A stretch of 12,622 nt of DNA from an uncultured Verrucomicrobiales bacterium (GTDB lineage Bacteria; Verrucomicrobiota; Verrucomicrobiia; Verrucomicrobiales; DEV007), in the NCBI GenBank assembly GCA_938091905.1, contig CALKOM010000002.1, positions 1-12,622 on the forward strand, given 5' to 3'. The notes under the pieces are model-generated. The model was not told the origin of the DNA. It saw only the letters and a program-made list of their open reading frames with translations, and did not search any database. This document shows, piece after piece, positions 220 through 10,625 of the stretch. A program made the position numbers and the translations under genes. The stretch's first letter is position 1; each line of letters opens with the position of its first letter.

Positions 220-1380
220 TTATGATTTTGTCGTGGTGAAAAGATAAGGATCCATCCAACCTTTCGTGCCTTGAGGAGGGATGAGGTCGAATGAAGTTGG
301 CTTCGCAGGGAGTCGGAAACTAACGCCAACGGGGAACCTGCCCTCGGGAGGCTTCCTTGTGTAGCGGCCTCCTCCCCAGTAGTCGCCCACGGCAACCAAG
401 TCGAAGCGAGACAGTTTCCCGTCCGTGAATGAGAGCTGGCCTACCAAATTAGCTTCGTAGCCGCTGGAGCCGTCGCTGCGGGCGAGGCGGACCTTGCCGC
501 GGATGTTGCCATCAATGTCGACCTTGAGCGAGGCTTGTTTCACGTCTTTCGGTTTCCAGAACGTGGGTTCTCCGCGGGTGTTATCGACCAAGTGATAGCG
601 AACTAAGCGTTGTGTGAGGGAACCCGTAAACACCCCGCGAGCCAACGCTTTTTGTTCTTTGGGTGTGATCCACAGGTTGTCACGAGACACGGCTTTCTGG
701 AAAATCTCGCGCCAGGAATCGTCAGTTTTCTCATAGCCACCTAGCACTTTAACGTGCGCGCGGGCAATGATCGTACCTTTGGGTGGGATGGCTTGGTATT
801 GCGGGTCTGCTTTCGTGACCTTAAGAGGCTGGGCAGCTTTGTTTGGAGAATAGTGCTTGAGTGCTTCAGTGAGCTGCTTCTTCACTTTCCAGTGGCCTCG
901 ATTGTTATTGAAAGCGAGGAGGTCACCGCTGGGAGAGATGGTGTAGAGTCCCTGTGTGGTTAAATTCACATCGTTCCGTGGACTTTGGGCGATGACCTCA
1001 CGCCAGAAGTCGCCTTCTTCGTCTTTCTGTTGTCGTTGATTGAACTGATCAATCGCGACAGGAACGAACTTTGTTTGGAGCAGCTCGATGATTTCAGGAT
1101 CGGCAAAGGTCGACGCACGGTCGAGGACGCCATTGTTTCAAGTGCAACCTAACGGGTGCCCATCCATGGCCCAAACAAAGAGAGGCTTGCCTTCTTTCAG
1201 TGCGAGTTGTTGCGCTGGCACGAGTGAGACTTGCCATGGAATCGTCGTCCATGCTTCCTTTGAGGGTCGTAGCGTTTGATGCCAGCTCGCAAAGGTTTTT
1301 GTAGTCAGTTCAGGACCACTCAGGACAGGGATTATTGAAAGCGTGAGTGCACCTATGGTCGCGAAGAGGATTCCTTGCAT
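220..1380 (-). CDS. Putative exported selenoprotein, 386 aa, Sec at residue 81 (TGA 1140-1138); thioredoxin-like (Thioredoxin_7/SelN-like) N-terminal domain plus an uncharacterised C-terminal domain
   Basis: Manual translation through the TGA gives ...IPWQVSLVPAQQLALKEGKPLFVWAMDGHPLGCT-U-NNGVLDRASTFADPEIIELLQTKFVPVAIDQFNQRQQKDEEGDFWREVIAQSPRNDVNLTTQGLY..., which joins the 220..969 ORF in frame. There are 56 stop-free codons between them. Thioredoxin-fold motifs lie on both sides of the TGA, and the N-terminus is hydrophobic like a signal peptide. ATG at 1380 is preferred over TTG at 1383. Confidence 0.85.
1101..1132 (-). promoter_or_regulatory. Candidate bacterial SECIS element
   Basis: The mRNA after UGA reads AACAA UGGCG UCC UCGAC CGUGC GUCGA CCUU UGCCG. 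Upper stem UCGAC/GUCGA; 5-nt loop CGUGC with G at loop position 2 followed by U; lower stem UGGCG/UGCCG. The loop starts 18 nt after UGA, matching the general bacterial SECIS model. Confidence 0.7.
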
Positions 1381-1385
1381 CAATC

Positions 1386-1436
1386 AAGAAATGGAGCGCA
1401 GCGGCCCTTGTCAACTGGTGTCCCCGCTCTCATCAT
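1386..1436. promoter_or_regulatory. Bidirectional sigma70-type promoter with overlapping -35 boxes
   Basis: Plus strand: TTGTCA(1408-1413)-17 nt-CATCAT(1431-1436)-5 nt-GTG(1442). Minus strand: TTGACA(1414-1409)-17 nt-TTTCTT(1391-1386)-5 nt-ATG(1380). Confidence 0.55.
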
Positions 1437-1441
1437 GGCGT

Positions 1442-2086
1442 GTGGCGACGTTTGTCCAATTTCTCTCGGATCTCTATGAAATAGGGCACGTGTCCTTGCC
1501 TGTCTTGGATCAGGGCGAGGGGCCAGACTTTGCATCACAGCGGGCGCAGGAACTGATTTCCTCACGCGATCAAACTTTGCGCCTCTCTGCAGCTGGATCT
1601 TTGCCCGAATTGGCGATGCCCGTGGCGCTAATGGGTGCTCGATGTCTCTACCTTGGCTGCCAGCTGTTTGTGGACCGCACCCGACCCATGACCGCGCTCG
1701 ATGGCTGTGTGCATGAAATTGGAAAACTAAGCCCAACCCCATCGACGGTGTATTCGTTGGATCTGGCCCTTGCCTTTCTGCCAGACCTGCATGCCCACGC
1801 GCGACAGCTTACGGAGGATGATGAACTCATGCGCCTCCTTGATCAACTGGCTCGACTGTGGCCATTCTCTACCGTGGGAATTCCCGAGAACGAGTCGGCC
1901 TGGGATCGAATCGCTCTGTGGTGGGACGACGTTAGCCTGCGGATCAGTTATGTGGATCGCCTCCTTGCTCGTGATGAGGGAGCTTGCCTGCGGCACGTGC
2001 CAGTGGCCGAGGCGGTGAAGGACGCGCTAGGCATGCGAGTCGAGGAACTCGCTGGGGATTCTGTAAGAACAATCTTGGCTACTTGA
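1442..2086 (+). CDS. bpX4-like protein (MoxR-vWA-beta-propeller ternary system accessory domain)
   Basis: Motifs FVQFLSDLYEIGHV, ARCLYLGCQLFVDR, VYSLDLALAFLPDL, LARLWPFSTVG and YVDRLL match my recollection of the bpX4 family. GTG 1442 is chosen as start because the ORF-track start (1343) overlaps the divergent gene and 1442 fits the promoter spacing. Confidence 0.65.
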   Translation: MATFVQFLSDLYEIGHVSLPVLDQGEGPDFASQRAQELISSRDQTLRLSAAGSLPELAMPVALMGARCLYLGCQLFVDRTRPMTALDGCVHEIGKLSPTPSTVYSLDLALAFLPDLHAHARQLTEDDELMRLLDQLARLWPFSTVGIPENESAWDRIALWWDDVSLRISYVDRLLARDEGACLRHVPVAEAVKDALGMRVEELAGDSVRTILAT

Positions 2087-2734: not shown

Positions 2735-3580
2735 CTAAATCGCGGATTTCGCAAATGAACGTCTGTCAAGATGGGGCGAGAGCTCATGCTCGATCCACTG
2801 CTCCAACGTGGCATGGAAATCGTTTCGAGTTTCTGCGTGAAAGGGTTCATGGAGGACATCTTCCAAAAGTCTGAATGTCTTTGCTTTCACCACCAGACGC
2901 TCGAAGAAAGTTTGAGCGAGGAGTGGGGAACAGATGGGATCCGCGCCACCATGTGTCATCAGCATGCGAAGGTTGGGATTGATCTTGTTTGAGATCGTCT
3001 GCAGTTCGCGTGCTGCCTCCAGGAGGATGATGCCGAGGCGCACTGTGATGCATTTGTGCATGAGCGGATCGCGACGTTTATCGGGGCCTGGACGGCATTG
3101 GCTGCTGCGTATGCCGCTCTTTATTGGAAAGCGAGGGCACACGGCGTGAAGTAATCGTGCCAGGCGCCGTTTGAGCGGCGACGCGTTGGTTTCAGGATCG
3201 ATCAGCGTCGATCCGATCCAAGTAAAGTCAGCCAGATCGGGGTATTTCGCTAAATGATAGAGCGCAATGAACCCTCCCATAGAGTGGCCAAATAATCCGA
3301 TCTGCTTACTCGGGCCGATGTCGTTACGAAGGGCCTCCATTTGCGTCATGAGGAGCTTGGTCATGGTCGCCATTGATCCGATGTGTCCACGCTGGCCTGG
3401 TGATTGTCCGTGCCCGGGCCAATCAAACGCCCGACAATAGATTCCGTGTTTTGCGCAGAGTGCTAGGTGCTGAGCATGTCTCCCGCTGTGCTCGCCAAGC
3501 CCATGGAGCATCACCGCACCGGCGCGTGCGGCCGTGGGGTCACCGAAGCTGCGTTGGAAGACGTCGCTCGGTGATGTCAT
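2735..3580 (-). CDS. Alpha/beta hydrolase, lysophospholipase/monoacylglycerol lipase (PldB-like)
   Basis: HGLGEH oxyanion motif, FDWPGHGQS, nucleophile elbow GHSMGG, catalytic Asp in HGGADPI and His in LHEP. Confidence 0.9.
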   Translation of the reverse strand: MTSPSDVFQRSFGDPTAARAGAVMLHGLGEHSGRHAQHLALCAKHGIYCRAFDWPGHGQSPGQRGHIGSMATMTKLLMTQMEALRNDIGPSKQIGLFGHSMGGFIALYHLAKYPDLADFTWIGSTLIDPETNASPLKRRLARLLHAVCPRFPIKSGIRSSQCRPGPDKRRDPLMHKCITVRLGIILLEAARELQTISNKINPNLRMLMTHGGADPICSPLLAQTFFERLVVKAKTFRLLEDVLHEPFHAETRNDFHATLEQWIEHELSPHLDRRSFAKSAI

Positions 3581-3588
3581 GGGTTCGG

Positions 3589-4404
3589 TTAATTAGATTC
3601 TGTCCTGACTTCTAATTGAGTTAGGGCGGCGATCTCTGCCGGGACATCGTCGCTTCTCATCAGCGTTTCGCCAACGAGAATCGTGTTGGCACCCCAGTCA
3701 AAGACTTGCTGAGCATCTTTTCGGGATTTGATGCCACTTTCACTCACGAAGATAAGATCGTCGGCAATCTCAAGGCTCAGGGCTTCGGTTGTCTTGAGGT
3801 CGACCTCGAAGGTCTTCAAATTGCGATTATTGACCCCAATGATGCGGGCTTCCGTATCGAGAGCGCGGTGAAGCTCTTCCTCATCATGGACCTCCACAAG
3901 GACATCTAGCTGACTCATGTGGGAGATTTCTAACAGAGAAACGAGTTCGTCTTGTTCGAGGCAGGCCACGATCAGCAGAATCGCATCCGCGCCTGCAACG
4001 ACCGCTTCATAGATTTGTGCAGGGTGAATAATGAAATCCTTGCGGAGCAAAGGAACATCCACGCATTTGCGTATCTGTGAGAGATAACTGAGACTGCCTT
4101 GAAAGAACTTCTCATCGGTTAGAACCGAGATGGCGTTGGCTCCTGACTCAGCATAGATCTGCGCCTGTAGGATAGGGTCGAATTCCTCGGCGATGACGCC
4201 AGCGGAGGGGGAGGCTTTCTTCACCTCCGCGATGAGGGAAATTTGATCGAGCCCCTGATCAATAGCGCGCTCGAAGGAACGAAAGTCGTCTCTGGTCAGC
4301 GCGGCCGCACGAAGTTTGTCCTCTAGCGGAATGATCTTCTCGATTTCCGTGCGCTTGTGCGCAACGATTTCTTGAAGGCGGTTGGAAACGGGAGCGTTAC
4401 TCAT
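3589..4404 (-). CDS. trpC: Indole-3-glycerol phosphate synthase
   Basis: Motifs IAEVKKASPSAG, AISVLTD, LRKDF, GADAILLI, LVEVH, IGVNNRNL, VSESGI and LVGETLM. Confidence 0.97.
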   Translation of the reverse strand: MSNAPVSNRLQEIVAHKRTEIEKIIPLEDKLRAAALTRDDFRSFERAIDQGLDQISLIAEVKKASPSAGVIAEEFDPILQAQIYAESGANAISVLTDEKFFQGSLSYLSQIRKCVDVPLLRKDFIIHPAQIYEAVVAGADAILLIVACLEQDELVSLLEISHMSQLDVLVEVHDEEELHRALDTEARIIGVNNRNLKTFEVDLKTTEALSLEIADDLIFVSESGIKSRKDAQQVFDWGANTILVGETLMRSDDVPAEIAALTQLEVRTESN

Positions 4405-5117
4405 TGAAGCTTCGAGATGTCGATAAGGACGTCACCAATGCCCGGCTTGGCTGTGCCAGGCTTGGTTGTGCCGCGAACTACCTGAACGATGGCGTCTTCA
4501 GGCTGACTACTGGTTACCTTCACATTGGCCAAGAGTTCATAGCTATCTGGTCTACGAACCGCGAACTCCTGGTTGGGTGAGACGCCGTCGAGCATCCCTT
4601 TATTGATGGTGTAAAACTCCCATTCTGGTTCGTAATGGCTGATCTTGGCGATGACCGGTAGCTTGGCCATTGCCTGTTCGGCAGGCGACAGCCCTGCGAG
4701 CGGCGATGGTGGTGGTGATGGCAGCTCGGCGGCTGTCGGCGGTGAACTTGGTGCCGGAATATTGGCTGACATTCCGGGCGGGCGTTGTCCATCGGGTAGG
4801 GGCGCTGGGAGATTGCGGAGTTCATTGAAGCGTTCCTGAAGAGCGCTGGTCTCAGCCATCTGTTCTTGGAGGGCTGCTGAAGTTTGATCTGCCTTGGGAT
4901 CGCGCATGCCGAGCCGGGATTCGAGAGCCGCGAGGCGCTCTTTCATCGGCATATCTGCTTGCTGTTTCCAGGCTTCTTGGAAGCTCACCAAATCGTTGCG
5001 TAGCTGAGACACTTCGGTTTGGCCTTGGTAGTTGAGGAAGGCCATCGCTCCAAGAAGAAAAACGGAGACGACTTGGAGAATGACCAGCGTGGTCAGGAGG
5101 CTCTGGTAAGGTTTCAT
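4401..5117 (-). CDS. Hypothetical membrane-anchored protein (N-terminal TM helix, coiled coil, Pro-rich linker, C-terminal beta domain)
   Basis: 238-aa ORF with a hydrophobic stretch at about residues 7-28, a heptad-like Q/E/L region and PSSPP/PSPPPSP linker. Its stop overlaps the trpC start (ATGA, 4404-4401). Confidence 0.8.
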   Translation of the reverse strand: MKPYQSLLTTLVILQVVSVFLLGAMAFLNYQGQTEVSQLRNDLVSFQEAWKQQADMPMKERLAALESRLGMRDPKADQTSAALQEQMAETSALQERFNELRNLPAPLPDGQRPPGMSANIPAPSSPPTAAELPSPPPSPLAGLSPAEQAMAKLPVIAKISHYEPEWEFYTINKGMLDGVSPNQEFAVRRPDSYELLANVKVTSSQPEDAIVQVVRGTTKPGTAKPGIGDVLIDISKLQ

Positions 5118-9007: not shown

Positions 9008-9223
9008 CTACTCCGAACCCTCTTTTTCCTCCACATCTGAAGGGATCACCTTGCCCTCGATGATTTCTTGCAGGGCAATGTCTGCTTGCCCCATGCGTCC
9101 TTGCACTGCAATCAGCGGAGGGCGGCCTTGATTCAGTTGCCTGACTCGCTTGGACACGATGTTGATAAGAAGGGGGATGTCACTGATGACCTTAGATGCT
9201 TGTTCAACTAGCTGGCTTTTCAT
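9008..9223 (-). CDS. rpoZ: RNA polymerase omega subunit (71 aa)
   Basis: MKSQLVEQASKVISDIPLLINIVSKRVRQLNQGRPPLI...DIALQEIIEGKV is the omega signature (SKR-RQL, IAL-EI-EG). True start is ATG 9223; the ORF-track extension to 9487 is non-homologous and overlaps the next gene. Confidence 0.9.
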   Translation of the reverse strand: MKSQLVEQASKVISDIPLLINIVSKRVRQLNQGRPPLIAVQGRMGQADIALQEIIEGKVIPSDVEEKEGSE

Positions 9224-9372
9224 AGGCAAGGCCTGAGGCTGGATCGCTGTGCTGCCTCCCGCAGCGGGGGGGGGAAGTCGATGATCTTTGTGGAGGACAT
9301 GAACAGCGTTACTACCTAAAGCGTTGGGGTAGGGTGAATTATAATAAAAGAATCCGACGATTAGGGAGTCTG

Positions 9373-9400
9373 CGCTTATCACCAGACGCGTGGTTGTCAA
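9373..9400 (-). promoter_or_regulatory. Possible promoter for rpoZ-smpB
   Basis: Perfect TTGACA (9400-9395), 16-nt spacer, weak -10 TAAGCG (9378-9373). Implies a leader of about 140 nt. Confidence 0.35.
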
Positions 9401-9419
9401 CATGAAATTCAGTGGGAAA

Positions 9420-10625
9420 TCACTTAGCGCTGATGTCGAATGATCTCGCGTAGGCGCTAGGGCGTTTAGAAATGAACACATTTCCATCGATTAAATGAGC
9501 GAGTGATTGTTCCTCAAGACGCATTTCCAGTCCCTGAAGCGGAGCCTTCAGCGATGCTGCAGCCCCCCTGAAGATATCTGGACGATAAGTACTTAAGACC
9601 ATGGCTTCGAGTTCGGCATCGGTGAGCGAACCGGGAAGATGGCCCCAGCGCATCATCTGGGTTGCAATCCACAGGGCATGGTTCTGATCGGGAGCCGCAC
9701 TTGCGTTCGTTCCGAACGTCACCATGTGGGAAATGTCTTTCCCAAAGTGGGGCAGTGTGTTCTCCAGGTCGGCTCTGGCTTGCGTCCGATTCTCGCTACT
9801 AGCATCGAGCCACTGACCCGCCTCGATTAAAGCGGCGACGACAGTGATCAAGGTTTCACGATTGGCTTCTGCCCATGACTCTGAACATGCAAGGACTGAC
9901 GTTGGGACGTCGCGAAGAATGGCGCTCGTCGTGATCACCGGCTTCCCATGCTTCGTGCCGGTGAATCCTTGGGCCGATCCTCTTAAACCGGGGGCCGTGG
10001 AAACAGCGACACTGGCCCGGTCTAAATGCGGATGAGGGGATTCAATGATCACCCCGCTCATGATGGGTGTCACCCCGGCAGCTCCCAACCAATAGCACAG
10101 TGTGTAAGCAATCGTGTCGTGTAAGGAGGCGACTGAGAATGTGAGAGGAGGATTCCCATTTCCAACTGCCTGGGCGACTCGAAGGAGGGCATCGGCAGAA
10201 ATTGGACGAACCGGATCGCCGTCGGCATCGAGGAGCATGTGAGATTGCATCTGATTCCAAAGCTCTTCAGTGACGGAAATCTGCCCGCCATTTCTCGTCA
10301 AAATGTGAGGAACAATCACGGCACTCTCTGAAAGAAGTGCTTCAGCAGGCGAGAGCATGCCGATGTCGAGCTGACCATTAGTTAGCTGCTCCCGGATTTC
10401 TTCGGTAGTTGAGTGTGTGGTTAGGGAAAGTTCGACGTTGGCCTTCCCAAAGAGCCCTTGTTTCTCCGCGATGAGGATGGGTGCTGCACCTAGATTTGCA
10501 GTGACTCCGACCCGTATCACCTTGACGTCAGGTATAACGATGGGGACTTTTTCAGCCTCTTCTTTCTTACAGGAGGCTAGTGCCATCATGACCAGTGCGA
10601 TGAGGAGGGACAACAGGCGGAGCAT
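9420..10625 (-). CDS. CmpA/NrtA-family ABC substrate-binding lipoprotein (divergent, orphan)
   Basis: Lipobox LASC (Cys19). Motifs APILIAEKQGLF, NGQLD, RNGGQISV..LW, DGDPVRPISADAL, YWLGAAGVTP, ALIEAGQWLD, ALWIATQMMRWG and YRPDIFR are all NrtA/CmpA-type. Confidence 0.85.
   Translation of the reverse strand: MLRLLSLLIALVMMALASCKKEEAEKVPIVIPDVKVIRVGVTANLGAAPILIAEKQGLFGKANVELSLTTHSTTEEIREQLTNGQLDIGMLSPAEALLSESAVIVPHILTRNGGQISVTEELWNQMQSHMLLDADGDPVRPISADALLRVAQAVGNGNPPLTFSVASLHDTIAYTLCYWLGAAGVTPIMSGVIIESPHPHLDRASVAVSTAPGLRGSAQGFTGTKHGKPVITTSAILRDVPTSVLACSESWAEANRETLITVVAALIEAGQWLDASSENRTQARADLENTLPHFGKDISHMVTFGTNASAAPDQNHALWIATQMMRWGHLPGSLTDAELEAMVLSTYRPDIFRGAAASLKAPLQGLEMRLEEQSLAHLIDGNVFISKRPSAYARSFDISAK

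What the first reader, a model, noticed from the sequence alone, without database searches (positions are those of the whole stretch)
220..1380. Hidden selenoprotein: two 'hypothetical' ORFs are one gene read through a UGA in a CxU motif
Seen in sequence: the 81-aa ORF ends at GHPLGCT-TGA, and the same frame continues without stops into the 249-aa ORF. The 56 codons after the TGA (NNGVLDRASTFADPEIIELLQTKFVPVAID...) encode the helix and strand that follow the active site in Thioredoxin_7/DUF255-like folds, so the TGA sits where a redox Cys/Sec belongs. Established knowledge: Sec is UGA-encoded and often found in Trx-fold Cys/Sec motifs, and gene callers split such genes. Inference: a 386-aa exported C-T-U redox selenoenzyme with a roughly 200-aa unknown C-terminal domain. 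I do not recognise it as a classical bacterial selenoprotein family, but cannot confirm it is undescribed.
Basis: partly seen in the sequence, partly recalled or inferred. Interest (0 to 1): 0.93.

Follow-up and report, generated by a model that had tools for sequence, protein, structure and literature searches.

The report
Unannotated selenoprotein gene split by UGA
Two "hypothetical" genes are really one gene for an exported, thioredoxin-like protein that carries selenocysteine at an in-frame UGA; it belongs to a large family in Planctomycetota and Verrucomicrobiota that gene callers always cut in two.

Summary
On the minus strand, one frame runs from ATG 1380 through TGA 1140-1138 to TAA 222-220, giving 386 codons with Sec at 81.

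It is not a broken gene. The same codon is TGA in 80 of 80 related loci from other species' genomes, with conservation on both sides. A 5-bp/5-nt hairpin begins 13 nt after the TGA. It fits the published bacterial SECIS model. Its synonymous sites are frozen, for example Arg is CGT in 81 of 81. Its only variable pair changes C-G to U-A.

Distant full-length relatives carry Cys at this position in 7 of 19 cases. A confident model puts Sec81 at the N-cap of helix 1 of a DsbH/DUF255-like thioredoxin fold. A 200-aa C-terminal domain follows and has no structural match.

No Pfam or NCBIfam model reaches threshold, and the family is not among the 119 families of a 2026 review.

Not checked: Sec machinery in this genome, and any experiment. 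The function, probably an exported Cys-x-Sec oxidoreductase, is inferred.

The parts
220..1380 (-). Complete selenoprotein gene: ATG 1380-1378, Sec-UGA 1140-1138, stop TAA 222-220; 386 codons. An in-frame TTG at 1383-1381 is the start that the ORF listing picked.
   Evidence: sequence and translation with TGA=U; 61 full-length homologues align end to end, 45-79% identical to the window protein.
1138..1140 (-). In-frame TGA = selenocysteine codon (residue 81) in the motif G-C-T-U-N-N-G.
   Evidence: TGA at the homologous codon in 80 of 80 loci. Cys at this column in 7 of 19 distant full-length homologues.
1144..1146 (-). TGC, Cys79, the likely partner (resolving) residue of the C-x-U motif.
   Evidence: Invariant in the 61-sequence alignment A3; the codon alternates TGC 44 / TGT 37.
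1110..1124 (-). Core SECIS hairpin: 5-bp stem UCGAC/GUCGA and 5-nt loop CGUGC. It starts 13 nt after the UGA; 18 nt separate the UGA from the loop.
   Evidence: RNAalifold consensus on 81 sequences. 99.7% of cells paired against at most 41.5% when slid; pair 24:36 changes C-G to U-A in 6 sequences. Synonymous sites are frozen.
1102..1131 (-). Extended SECIS in this window: lower stem GGCG (1131-1128) with UGCC (1105-1102) around the core hairpin. The lower stem varies between species.
   Evidence: MFE fold of the 42 nt after the UGA is -10.9 kcal/mol for the window; 71 of 81 sequences are at or below -7.5 kcal/mol; 67 of 81 MFE folds keep the core hairpin.
1315..1380 (-). Probable signal peptide (residues 1 to about 22, hydrophobic core GILFATIGALTLSIIPVL). 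The cleavage site was not predicted.
   Evidence: Read from the sequence. pLDDT is 52-56 over residues 1-20. A crude hydrophobic-run test passes 56 of 61 homologues; the window itself just misses my 60% cut. Leaders are listed.
853..1302 (-). Thioredoxin-like (DsbH/DUF255/Thioredoxin_7-type) domain, residues about 27-176. Strand 67-72, loop 73-81 ending in C-T-U, helix 82-89.
   Evidence: AlphaFold2 model, pLDDT 88.3, pTM 0.86. Foldseek hits 3f9u, 3ira, 7tkv, 1sen and AGR2/3 with probability 0.97-1.0, E 2e-3 to 5e-2, TM(target) 0.52-0.67 for the single-domain chains. Weak Pfam matches.
223..825 (-). C-terminal domain of unknown fold and function, residues 186-386, with invariant motifs such as H-L-x-D-N-T-R-G-x-P-x-x-W.
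   Evidence: Model pLDDT 88.7. No convincing PDB match: best E 1e-2, probability at most 0.63, TM at most 0.30. No Pfam or NCBIfam hit. Atlas finds only unnamed clusters.
1138..1383 (-). The 81-aa 'hypothetical ORF' that a standard gene caller would produce: N-terminal fragment ending at the Sec codon.
220..969 (-). The 249-aa 'hypothetical ORF' as called from GTG 969 (C-terminal fragment). A public record 99% identical is named 'hypothetical protein' from a Verrucomicrobiales MAG.
   Evidence: P0002.

Best explanation
Window 220-1380(-) is a single gene for a 386-residue exported selenoprotein. Shown: the frame is open across one TGA. That TGA, the residues on both sides of it and a small hairpin 13 nt downstream are conserved in every relative examined. 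Inferred from the established bacterial mechanism: the hairpin acts as a SECIS element that recruits SelB-GTP-Sec-tRNA(Sec), so the ribosome inserts selenocysteine at codon 81 instead of stopping. Inferred from the leader: the protein is exported and the leader is removed. Modelled: residues about 27-176 form a DsbH/DUF255-type thioredoxin fold, and Sec81 sits at the N-terminal cap of the first helix, the position of the reactive Cys in thioredoxin-fold oxidoreductases. Inferred mechanism: the selenolate of Sec81 attacks an oxidised substrate (a disulfide, sulfenate, peroxide or similar). Cys79 then resolves the adduct as a Cys79-Sec81 selenenylsulfide, which an unknown periplasmic reductant recycles. 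The conserved 200-aa C-terminal domain, of a fold not matched in the PDB, would supply substrate or ligand binding. The family is a near-obligate Sec clade of Planctomycetota and Verrucomicrobiota. Paralogues that have Cys, or have lost the motif, exist both as stand-alone proteins and as extracytoplasmic domains of Ser/Thr kinases and a FecR-type protein.
For: One frame with a single TGA. TGA at the same codon in 80 of 80 loci: 65 Planctomycetota, 10 Verrucomicrobiota, 5 other or unlabelled bins. Of the 120 best public protein hits, 78 start exactly 4 codons after the TGA, 41 start further downstream or otherwise, 1 spans it (with W) and none has Cys, which is the signature of systematic truncation by gene callers. 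SECIS: the consensus hairpin is paired in 99.7% of cells against at most 41.5% when slid, and the only variable pair changes on both sides in 6 sequences. Normalised synonymous-codon entropy is 0 to 0.15 at Leu+5, Asp+6, Arg+7 (CGT 81/81) and Ser+9. It is 0.37 to 1.0 at the other conserved codons of the gene except Asn+1 (0.28), and Arg elsewhere uses CGT as a minority codon. The element meets the published bSECIS constraints as read in the Fig. 2 legend of PMC13188914: 5-nt loop, 5-bp stem, G then U at loop positions 2-3, 18 nt from UGA to loop, MFE at or below -7.5 kcal/mol in 71 of 81. Sec/Cys pairing: Cys at the site in 7 of 19 distant full-length homologues. In the tree, the 61 Sec forms plus one Cys form make one clade with SH-aLRT 99. 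The fold spans the TGA, with strand 1 before it and helix 1 after it, at pLDDT 84-98 around the site, and Foldseek gives Trx-fold hits. TGA ends 4 of 11 other window genes, so the code is standard.
Against: No Sec machinery (selA, selB, selC, selD) lies in the 12.6-kb window, and the rest of the genome could not be searched. The 81-nt region around the TGA does not fold better than shuffles on energy alone: z = -1.11, and 28 of 200 shuffles fold as well. The covariation rests on one pair; five of its six sequences are one clade, so it reflects only one or two events. The conserved peptide L-D-R-A/E-S-T overlaps the hairpin, so part of the nucleotide conservation is protein-level. Eleven of 19 distant homologues have neither Sec nor Cys at the site, so the module can work without redox chemistry. 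The Trx assignment is sub-threshold by sequence (12.6 bits against 27) and marginal by Foldseek E-value (2e-3). No cis-Pro is evident in front of strand 3, where T-T-Q-G stands instead. C-x-U spacing is unusual for Trx folds. No conserved neighbouring gene hints at a pathway. Nothing here is experimental.
Confidence: 0.85

Rival explanations
1. It is a true selenoprotein, but the Cys-x-Sec pair is a binding site (for example for a soft metal or metalloid, or for a small-molecule ligand held by the C-terminal domain) rather than a catalytic redox couple. The protein would then be a periplasmic binding, chaperone or sensor protein.
For: The whole two-domain module occurs as the extracytoplasmic part of Ser/Thr kinases (P0151, P0154, P0189, P0258) and of a FecR-domain protein (P0260), which is typical of sensor domains. 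Eleven of 19 distant homologues lack the Cys/Sec pair yet keep the fold. The weak best fold resemblances of the C-domain are to ligand-binding lipocalin, PYL, START and LolA-type proteins. No cis-Pro loop is evident. Recalled, not tested: closely spaced Cys/Sec pairs chelate Hg, Cu and As in several selenoproteins, and the Table 1 read lists metal-binding CU and UxxU families.
Against: Sec sits at the helix-1 N-cap of a Trx fold, the classical catalytic position. Near-total retention of Sec over Cys within the clade (61 to 1) is more usual for catalysis. The fold matches of the C-domain are not significant.
Confidence: 0.25
2. The UGA is decoded without selenocysteine, by genome-wide or local reassignment (Trp, Gly or Cys) or by leaky read-through.
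For: One public full-length homologue is written with W at the site (P0007). UGA-to-Trp reassignment is reported in some Verrucomicrobiota (abstract of PMC13462651 in the listing).
Against: TGA terminates 4 of 11 other genes in this window. The codon is always TGA and never a sense codon in 80 loci from two phyla, whereas a Trp, Gly or Cys position would drift to its sense codons. A conserved hairpin with SECIS geometry follows it. Cys, not Trp, aligns in the outgroups. The W in P0007 is most simply a table-4 gene call (inference).
Confidence: 0.03
3. The TGA is a real stop: either a pseudogene or two separately made polypeptides, an 80-aa exported peptide plus a C-terminal protein.
For: Standard gene calling gives two ORFs. 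In many relatives a GTG lies 4 codons after the TGA, where callers start the second ORF.
Against: In this window there is no start codon for 56 codons after the TGA, although that stretch is among the most conserved parts. That codon is GTC in the window and 5 other sequences, GTT in 5 and GTA in 3 of 79 Val codons, and Ile (ATA, ATC) in 2 loci. The frame is kept in 80 of 80 loci. The Trx fold needs residues from both sides. A nonsense mutation would not be identical in 80 species that share 45-83% identity.
Confidence: 0.02

Closest known systems
Thioredox_DsbH / DUF255 (PF03190) and Thioredoxin_7 (PF13899) domains, e.g. PDB 7tkv, 3ira, 3f9u; ERp19/AGR-type Trx folds (1sen, 3ph9)
   Same: The predicted fold of residues about 27-176, with the reactive residue at the N-terminus of helix 1. 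Weak sequence matches in 52 of 61 (DsbH) and 29 of 61 (Thioredoxin_7) members.
   Different: All matches are below Pfam's gathering score (window: 12.6 bits against 27). The motif is C-x-U after a long G-H-P-L-G loop instead of CxxC. The C-terminal partner domain is different. Sec replaces Cys.
VPGUxxT family thioredoxin-like (seleno)protein, type 2 (NCBIfam NF041383; 'OS_HP5' in Table 1 of PMC13188914)
   Same: A Trx-like bacterial selenoprotein family of similar architecture: the model is 287 positions long with the Trx part at the N-terminus. It is the only NCBIfam model that the family touches, in 36 of 61 members, over residues 46-122.
   Different: Best E-value 1.2e-3 and 15.7 bits for the window protein against a cut-off of 275. 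The Sec motif is L-G-C-T-U, not V-P-G-U-x-x-T. At most it is a remote cousin.
[quoted passage not shown]
   Same: Cys and Sec separated by one residue (Table 1 of PMC13188914).
   Different: None of these models matches the protein even at E up to 1. Their sizes and domain contexts differ.
Classical bacterial SECIS, as in E. coli fdhF and the bSECISearch consensus
   Same: Stem-loop inside the coding region right after the UGA, small apical loop with G-U, UGA-to-loop spacing within 16-37 nt (model read; measured).
   Different: The conserved core is very short (5 bp plus a 5-nt loop, -4.3 kcal/mol alone). It is almost invariant in sequence across two phyla, whereas bSECIS elements are usually described as dissimilar between genes. 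The lower stem is not conserved.

Membership tests
Bacterial selenoprotein gene (UGA/SECIS-decoded) | In-frame UGA conserved among orthologues, with sequence conservation on both sides | tested here: met
   80 of 80 loci have TGA at the same codon. tblastn matches cross it. 61 full-length read-through proteins align throughout.
Bacterial selenoprotein gene (UGA/SECIS-decoded) | bSECIS stem-loop just downstream: 3-9 nt loop, 4-16 bp stem, G in the first two loop positions, 16-37 nt from UGA, MFE at or below -7.5 kcal/mol (constraints read in PMC13188914) | tested here: met
   5-nt loop C-G-U-G-C/A, 5-bp stem, 18-nt spacing. Window MFE -10.9 kcal/mol; 71 of 81 at or below -7.5; 67 of 81 MFE folds contain the hairpin. 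Frozen synonymous sites. One compensatory pair. Counter-point: energy z-score only -1.11.
Bacterial selenoprotein gene (UGA/SECIS-decoded) | Cys-containing homologues aligning Cys with the UGA | tested here: met
   7 of 19 distant full-length homologues have Cys at the column: P0126, P0132, P0167, P0235 and P0151 with C-x-C; P0233 and P0258 without the first Cys. 11 have other residues and 1 has W.
Bacterial selenoprotein gene (UGA/SECIS-decoded) | selA, selB, selC (tRNA-Sec) and selD present in the genome | not testable with these tools
   None in the window. Passages of PMC4807772 report Sec machinery in several Planctomycetes.
Bacterial selenoprotein gene (UGA/SECIS-decoded) | Selenium actually incorporated (75Se labelling or MS) | not testable with these tools
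   This needs an experiment.
Thioredox_DsbH/DUF255 (PF03190) and Thioredoxin_7 (PF13899) | Score at or above Pfam's gathering threshold | tested here: not met
   Window protein 12.6 bits against 27. 52 of 61 and 29 of 61 members match only weakly, best E 5e-4 and 1.9e-3.
Thioredox_DsbH/DUF255 (PF03190) and Thioredoxin_7 (PF13899) | Thioredoxin fold with the reactive residue at the N-terminus of helix 1 | tested here: met
   Model: strand 67-72, loop 73-81, helix 82-89. Foldseek probability 1.0 to 3f9u, 3ira, 7tkv and 1sen. This rests on a predicted structure only.
Thioredox_DsbH/DUF255 (PF03190) and Thioredoxin_7 (PF13899) | CxxC-type active-site motif (the family's usual motif as I recall it, not from a call) | tested here: not met
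   The motif is C79-T80-U81; C79 and T80 are invariant in A3 and the codon for residue 81 is TGA in all 81 sequences.
VPGUxxT thioredoxin-like selenoprotein, type 2 (NF041383) | NCBIfam cut-off score (275 bits) and the V-P-G-U-x-x-T motif | tested here: not met
   15.7 bits. The motif here is L-G-C-T-U-N-N-G.
[quoted passage not shown] | Match to Thioredoxin_3 (PF13192) | tested here: not met
   PF13192 was not reported for the window protein at E up to 1 and is not among the 12 families listed for the 61 members.

The most novel reading that the evidence does not exclude
This would be a previously undescribed and abundant selenoenzyme family specific to the PVC group. Selenocysteine is practically irreplaceable in it (61 Sec to 1 Cys within the clade). 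A Trx-fold C-x-U centre works together with a structurally new C-terminal domain on a specific periplasmic small molecule or oxidant. Its Sec-less paralogues have been recruited as the sensing domains of transmembrane Ser/Thr kinases and FecR-type anti-sigma factors, so the same ligand would be both detoxified or converted and sensed. Its SECIS, a 15-nt core nearly invariant across two phyla, would point to an unusually strict SelB-RNA recognition in these bacteria.
Probability: 0.3. Interest if true: 0.8.

Novelty: new member of a known kind. Interest (0 to 1): 0.62.

Why it matters
Standard gene callers stop at UGA. In the public protein sets I searched, every member of the Sec clade is split or truncated and named 'hypothetical', apart from one record written with W at the site.

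The family is large. A profile search found 2447 clusters at 50% identity with E up to 1e-3, a count that includes the Cys and motif-less paralogues.

It is not covered by NCBIfam release 20 or by the 119 families tabulated in 2026. Recognising it would correct hundreds of annotations. It would also enlarge the known selenoproteomes of Planctomycetota and Verrucomicrobiota, and it would add a C-x-U thioredoxin-fold centre with a new partner domain to the list of Sec chemistries.

The clade keeps Sec in 61 of 62 members, which makes it a good case for asking why Sec is preferred over Cys. The kinase and FecR fusions give an experimental handle on what the module recognises.

Tried and rejected
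- **Rfam, whole window, gathering thresholds:** no match.
- **tRNA scan:** no gene, so no selC here.
- **Single-sequence folding of the 81 nt around the TGA:** not better than shuffles, z = -1.11. The case for a SECIS therefore rests on comparative data.
- **Lower SECIS stem:** it pairs in the window, but it pairs a Gly wobble base with the first base of an Ala codon. It is not conserved, so I do not claim it as a family feature.
- **Conserved gene neighbourhood:** none. The three commonest 'neighbour' clusters are antisense ORFs over the gene itself. The next are a sulfatase-like protein in 9 of 81 loci and another family in 7.
- **PDB by sequence (profile and N-domain alone):** only chance-level hits, E at least 0.1, including a local G-H-P-x-G-x-x-x-N-N-G-V-L resemblance to carboxyltransferases.
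- **PDB by fold for the C-domain:** nothing convincing.
- **ESM Atlas:** The table-11 249-aa ORF returned only unnamed Planctomycetota clusters and had no structure search.
- **Literature (paper search; passages or sections read):** no description of this family. The groundwater-MAG study mentioned in PMC13188914 is not in the library.
- **Supplementary tables (closed, could not be seen):** PMC4807772 S9, the BSepDB Table S2 and the GOS Dataset S2 might list a member.
- **Closed collections:** Metagenome contigs and viral contigs were not searched.
- **P0263:** left out of the Sec-column count because its N-terminal part does not align.
Full report
**1. The observation**

The feature lies on the minus strand. 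The ORF listing gives an 81-aa ORF at 1138..1383(-) and a 249-aa ORF at 220..969(-). Translating 1383->220 in one frame with TGA=U gives a continuous reading. The only internal stop is the TGA at window 1140-1138, and the frame ends at TAA 222-220. The codons before the TGA read G-H-P-L-G-C-T. Fifty-six codons separate the TGA from the GTG where the second ORF is called. Counted from ATG 1380, the product is 386 residues with Cys79-Thr80-Sec81.

**2. Is it more than a nonsense mutation?**

A search of 5.8 billion public proteins with the read-through product returned 764 hits at E up to 1e-3 among 5047 candidates. Of the 120 best:
- 78 begin exactly four codons after the position of the TGA, with M-x-D-R;
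- 41 begin further downstream or otherwise;
- 1 (P0007, 406 aa) spans the site and is written with W there;
- none has Cys.

That is the footprint of gene callers restarting after a conserved stop.

I then fetched DNA. The best 80 loci were kept. By record labels they are 65 Planctomycetota, 10 Verrucomicrobiota, 3 unlabelled, 1 Omnitrophota bin and 1 bin labelled Alcaligenaceae. The tblastn matches cross the stop, for example query residues 2-381.

A strict pattern found the motif W-A-M-D-G-H-P-L-G-C-T-TGA-N-N-G in 74 of 80 loci. A looser pattern found it in the remaining 6. So the codon is TGA in 80 of 80, never TAA, TAG or a sense codon, in sequences 45-83% identical to the window protein.

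TGA is a normal stop in this genome: it ends 4 of the 11 other window genes I examined. That excludes a table-4 or table-25 type code.

**3. The SECIS element**

I aligned 69 nt (6 before the TGA to 63 from it) from the window and the 80 loci; 79 rows are distinct. RNAalifold predicts one consensus hairpin: a 5-bp stem UCGAC/GUCGA with a 5-nt loop C-G-U-G-C/A. In the window it lies at 1124-1110.
- Standard pairs form in 99.7% of cells, against at most 41.5% when the 3' arm is slid by 1-3 columns.
- The only variable pair changes on both sides (C-G to U-A) in 6 sequences.
- One cell is broken, in L034.

Five of those six sequences form one clade in the protein tree. L080 was not in the tree. 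The covariation therefore reflects one or two events and is weak on its own.

The stronger evidence is at synonymous sites. For residues conserved in at least 80% of the 81 sequences, normalised codon entropy is:
- 0.37-1.0 throughout the gene outside this stretch;
- 0.28 at Asn+1;
- 0.47 at Val+4;
- 0.15 at Leu+5 (CTC 70, CTT 6);
- 0 at Asp+6 (GAC 80/80);
- 0 at Arg+7 (CGT 81/81, while other Arg positions of the same gene use CGT in only 7-22 of about 80);
- 0.15 at Ser+9 (TCG 75, TCA 6).

Codons just outside the hairpin vary freely, for example Gly+3, Thr+10 and Phe+11. This RNA-level constraint coincides exactly with the hairpin.

The element satisfies the published bacterial SECIS model, which I read in the Fig. 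2 legend of PMC13188914. That model requires a 3-9-nt loop, a 4-16-bp stem, G in the first two loop positions (usually followed by G or U), 16-37 nt between UGA and loop, and MFE at or below -7.5 kcal/mol. Here the loop is 5 nt, the stem 5 bp, G-U occupies loop positions 2-3 and the spacing is 18 nt. The 42 nt after the UGA fold at -10.9 kcal/mol in the window and at or below -7.5 in 71 of 81 sequences. The hairpin is present in 67 of 81 MFE folds.

Results against: on energy alone the window's 81 nt are not better than shuffles (z = -1.11; 28 of 200 shuffles fold as well). The lower stem seen in the window (1131-1128 with 1105-1102) is not conserved. Rfam has no matching family.

**4. Sec/Cys pairs and evolution**

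A profile of 61 full-length read-through proteins (A3) was built from the window plus 60 of the 80 loci. The 20 loci dropped were those whose first ATG lay under 70 or over 100 codons before the TGA, or whose C-terminal length was unusual. I searched this profile against 1.84 billion cluster representatives. It found 2447 hits at E up to 1e-3, 1004 at up to 1e-10 and 273 at up to 1e-30.

I aligned 19 hits whose gene calls span the site. A twentieth, P0263, was dropped because its N-terminus does not align. At the Sec column:
- 7 have Cys. P0126, P0132, P0167, P0235 and P0151 have the full C-x-C; P0233 and P0258 lack the first Cys.
- 1 has W (P0007).
- 11 have other residues with the motif lost.

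A quick maximum-likelihood tree of 79 rows puts the 61 Sec forms and one long-branched Cys form (P0126) in one clade with SH-aLRT 99. The other Cys forms and the motif-less forms lie outside it. Long branches make the deep order unsure. The window groups with the Verrucomicrobial loci L001, L003, L002 and L010 (support 100).

The picture is the usual one for selenoproteins, with a Sec clade and Cys relatives. What is unusual is how little Cys replacement there is inside the clade.

**5. The protein**

AlphaFold2 on A3 gives a confident model: mean pLDDT 88.3, pTM 0.86.
- Residues 1-20 are low-confidence and hydrophobic, a probable signal peptide. Comparable leaders appear in the relatives. A crude hydrophobic-run test passes 56 of 61; the window itself narrowly fails my arbitrary 60% cut.
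- Residues about 27-176 form a thioredoxin-type alpha/beta domain with strand 67-72, loop 73-81 (D-G-H-P-L-G-C-T-U) and helix 82-89. Sec81 therefore caps helix 1, and the fold needs residues from both sides of the TGA.
- Foldseek against the PDB gives DsbH/DUF255-type and ERp19/AGR-type Trx domains: 3f9u, 3ira, 7tkv, 1sen, 3ph9 and 9i3u. Probabilities are 0.97-1.0, E-values 2e-3 to 5e-2, and TM on the target 0.52-0.67 for the single-domain chains.
- By sequence the relation is only sub-threshold. Thioredox_DsbH scores 12.6 bits against 27 for the window, with weak hits in 52 of 61 members. Thioredoxin_7 is hit weakly in 29 of 61.

Residues 186-386, modelled alone, reach pLDDT 88.7. They form two helix-flanked strand pairs followed by a five-stranded antiparallel sheet. 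There is no convincing PDB counterpart: best E 1e-2, probability at most 0.63, TM at most 0.30, with vague lipocalin, PYL, START and LolA-like resemblances. There is also no Pfam or NCBIfam match and no named Atlas cluster.

The whole two-domain module also occurs C-terminal to protein-kinase domains (P0151, P0154, P0189, P0258) and to a FecR domain (P0260), that is, as a likely extracytoplasmic sensor domain. No gene is consistently adjacent to the family: the best real neighbour cluster occurs in 9 of 81 loci. In the window the neighbours are unrelated. They are a divergent bpX4-domain gene, an alpha/beta hydrolase, trpC, folD, smpB, an rpoZ-like ORF, an NMT1-type binding protein and a methyltransferase.

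**6. How it most likely works**

Shown: one reading frame, a conserved UGA, a conserved downstream hairpin under RNA-level selection, Cys at the site in outgroups, and a Trx-type model with the site at the helix N-cap.

From established knowledge of bacterial Sec decoding: SelB bound to the hairpin delivers Sec-tRNA(Sec) to the UGA.

Inferred: the protein is exported and the leader removed. The Sec81 selenolate attacks an oxidised substrate. Cys79 resolves the adduct as a selenenylsulfide. The C-terminal domain binds the substrate.

The main rival at the functional level, which I put at about 0.25, is that C-x-U is a binding or sensing site rather than a catalytic couple. The kinase and FecR fusions and the motif-less paralogues favour that view. 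Non-Sec decoding and a true stop are each very unlikely (0.03 and 0.02).

**7. Comparison with what is known**

NCBIfam release 20.0 (June 2026) contains curated models for many selenoprotein families. The window protein touches only NF041383 (VPGUxxT thioredoxin-like selenoprotein, type 2), at 15.7 bits against a cut-off of 275. Thirty-six of 61 members give similarly weak hits.

I read Table 1 of the May 2026 review PMC13188914 in full (section 7, parts 1-2). It lists 119 prokaryotic selenoprotein families with their model identifiers. The C-x-U entries are rhodanese form 3, UshA-like, ferredoxin-thioredoxin reductase and Trx-like Sec.1/PF13192. None of them matches this protein even at E up to 1.

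Passages of the GOS study (PMC2398784), BSepDB (PMC13326102), the Porphyra planctomycete paper (PMC4807772) and PMC1242214 do not describe it. The searches found nothing else.

I could not see supplementary tables, and the groundwater-MAG study cited by the review is not in the library. A listing there cannot be excluded.

**8. Verdict**

This is a genuine, currently unannotated selenoprotein gene and, as far as these checks reach, a new family: a new member of the well-known kind 'Trx-fold bacterial selenoprotein decoded by UGA plus SECIS'. My confidence that it is a Sec-decoded single gene is about 0.9. My confidence in the specific redox mechanism is about 0.5.

Noticed in passing
window 1343-2086 (+): Divergently oriented ORF with a strong match to Pfam bpX4 (PF19920, 'MoxR-vWA-beta-propeller ternary system domain', E 5.5e-34). 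No MoxR, vWA or beta-propeller gene is visible in the window. As called from GTG 1343 it overlaps the selenoprotein start by about 40 nt, so its real start is probably further downstream.
   Followed up: no
proteins P0151, P0154, P0189, P0258 (Pkinase + module) and P0260 (FecR + module): The complete Trx-plus-C-domain module is fused C-terminally to Ser/Thr protein kinases and to a FecR-domain protein. In most of these the Cys/Sec motif is degraded. This suggests the module also serves as an extracytoplasmic sensor domain.
   Followed up: partly
protein P0007 and P0184: P0007, a full-length public gene% identical to the window protein, has W exactly at the Sec position; this is probably a TGA translated under table 4 by the source's pipeline.
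   Followed up: no
protein P0126 in the tree: A single Cys (C-T-C) form sits on a long branch inside the otherwise all-Sec clade (support 99). It is a candidate Sec-to-Cys reversion.
   Followed up: partly
L074, about 3169-4700: In this Pirellulaceae locus the ORF continues for 505 codons after the Sec codon instead of about 300. Either the stop is lost or it is fused with a downstream gene.
   Followed up: no
window 1102-1137 (-) against PDB 4q0g and 9yx0: The peptide around the Sec site (G-H-P-L-G-C-T-U-N-N-G-V-L) locally resembles a G-H-P-V-G-I-x-A-N-N-G-V-L stretch of acyl-CoA carboxyltransferase beta subunits, with E 0.1-1.9. This is probably chance.
   Followed up: no
window 9008-9487 (-) and 9420-10625 (-): The RpoZ-like ORF matches the Rpb6 domain only at residues 107-147, and its long N-terminal extension overlaps the upstream NMT1_2 gene by 68 nt. 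The true start is probably much further downstream.
   Followed up: no
L001-L080: Long antisense ORFs (up to 489 aa) overlap the selenoprotein gene on the opposite strand in 67 of 81 loci. I read them as artefacts (inference). They could mislead gene callers.
   Followed up: no
L001-L080 titles: All 80 best loci come from metagenome-assembled genomes; no cultured isolate is among them. Two bins carry labels outside the PVC group (Alcaligenaceae L006, Omnitrophota L013), which may be binning errors.
   Followed up: no
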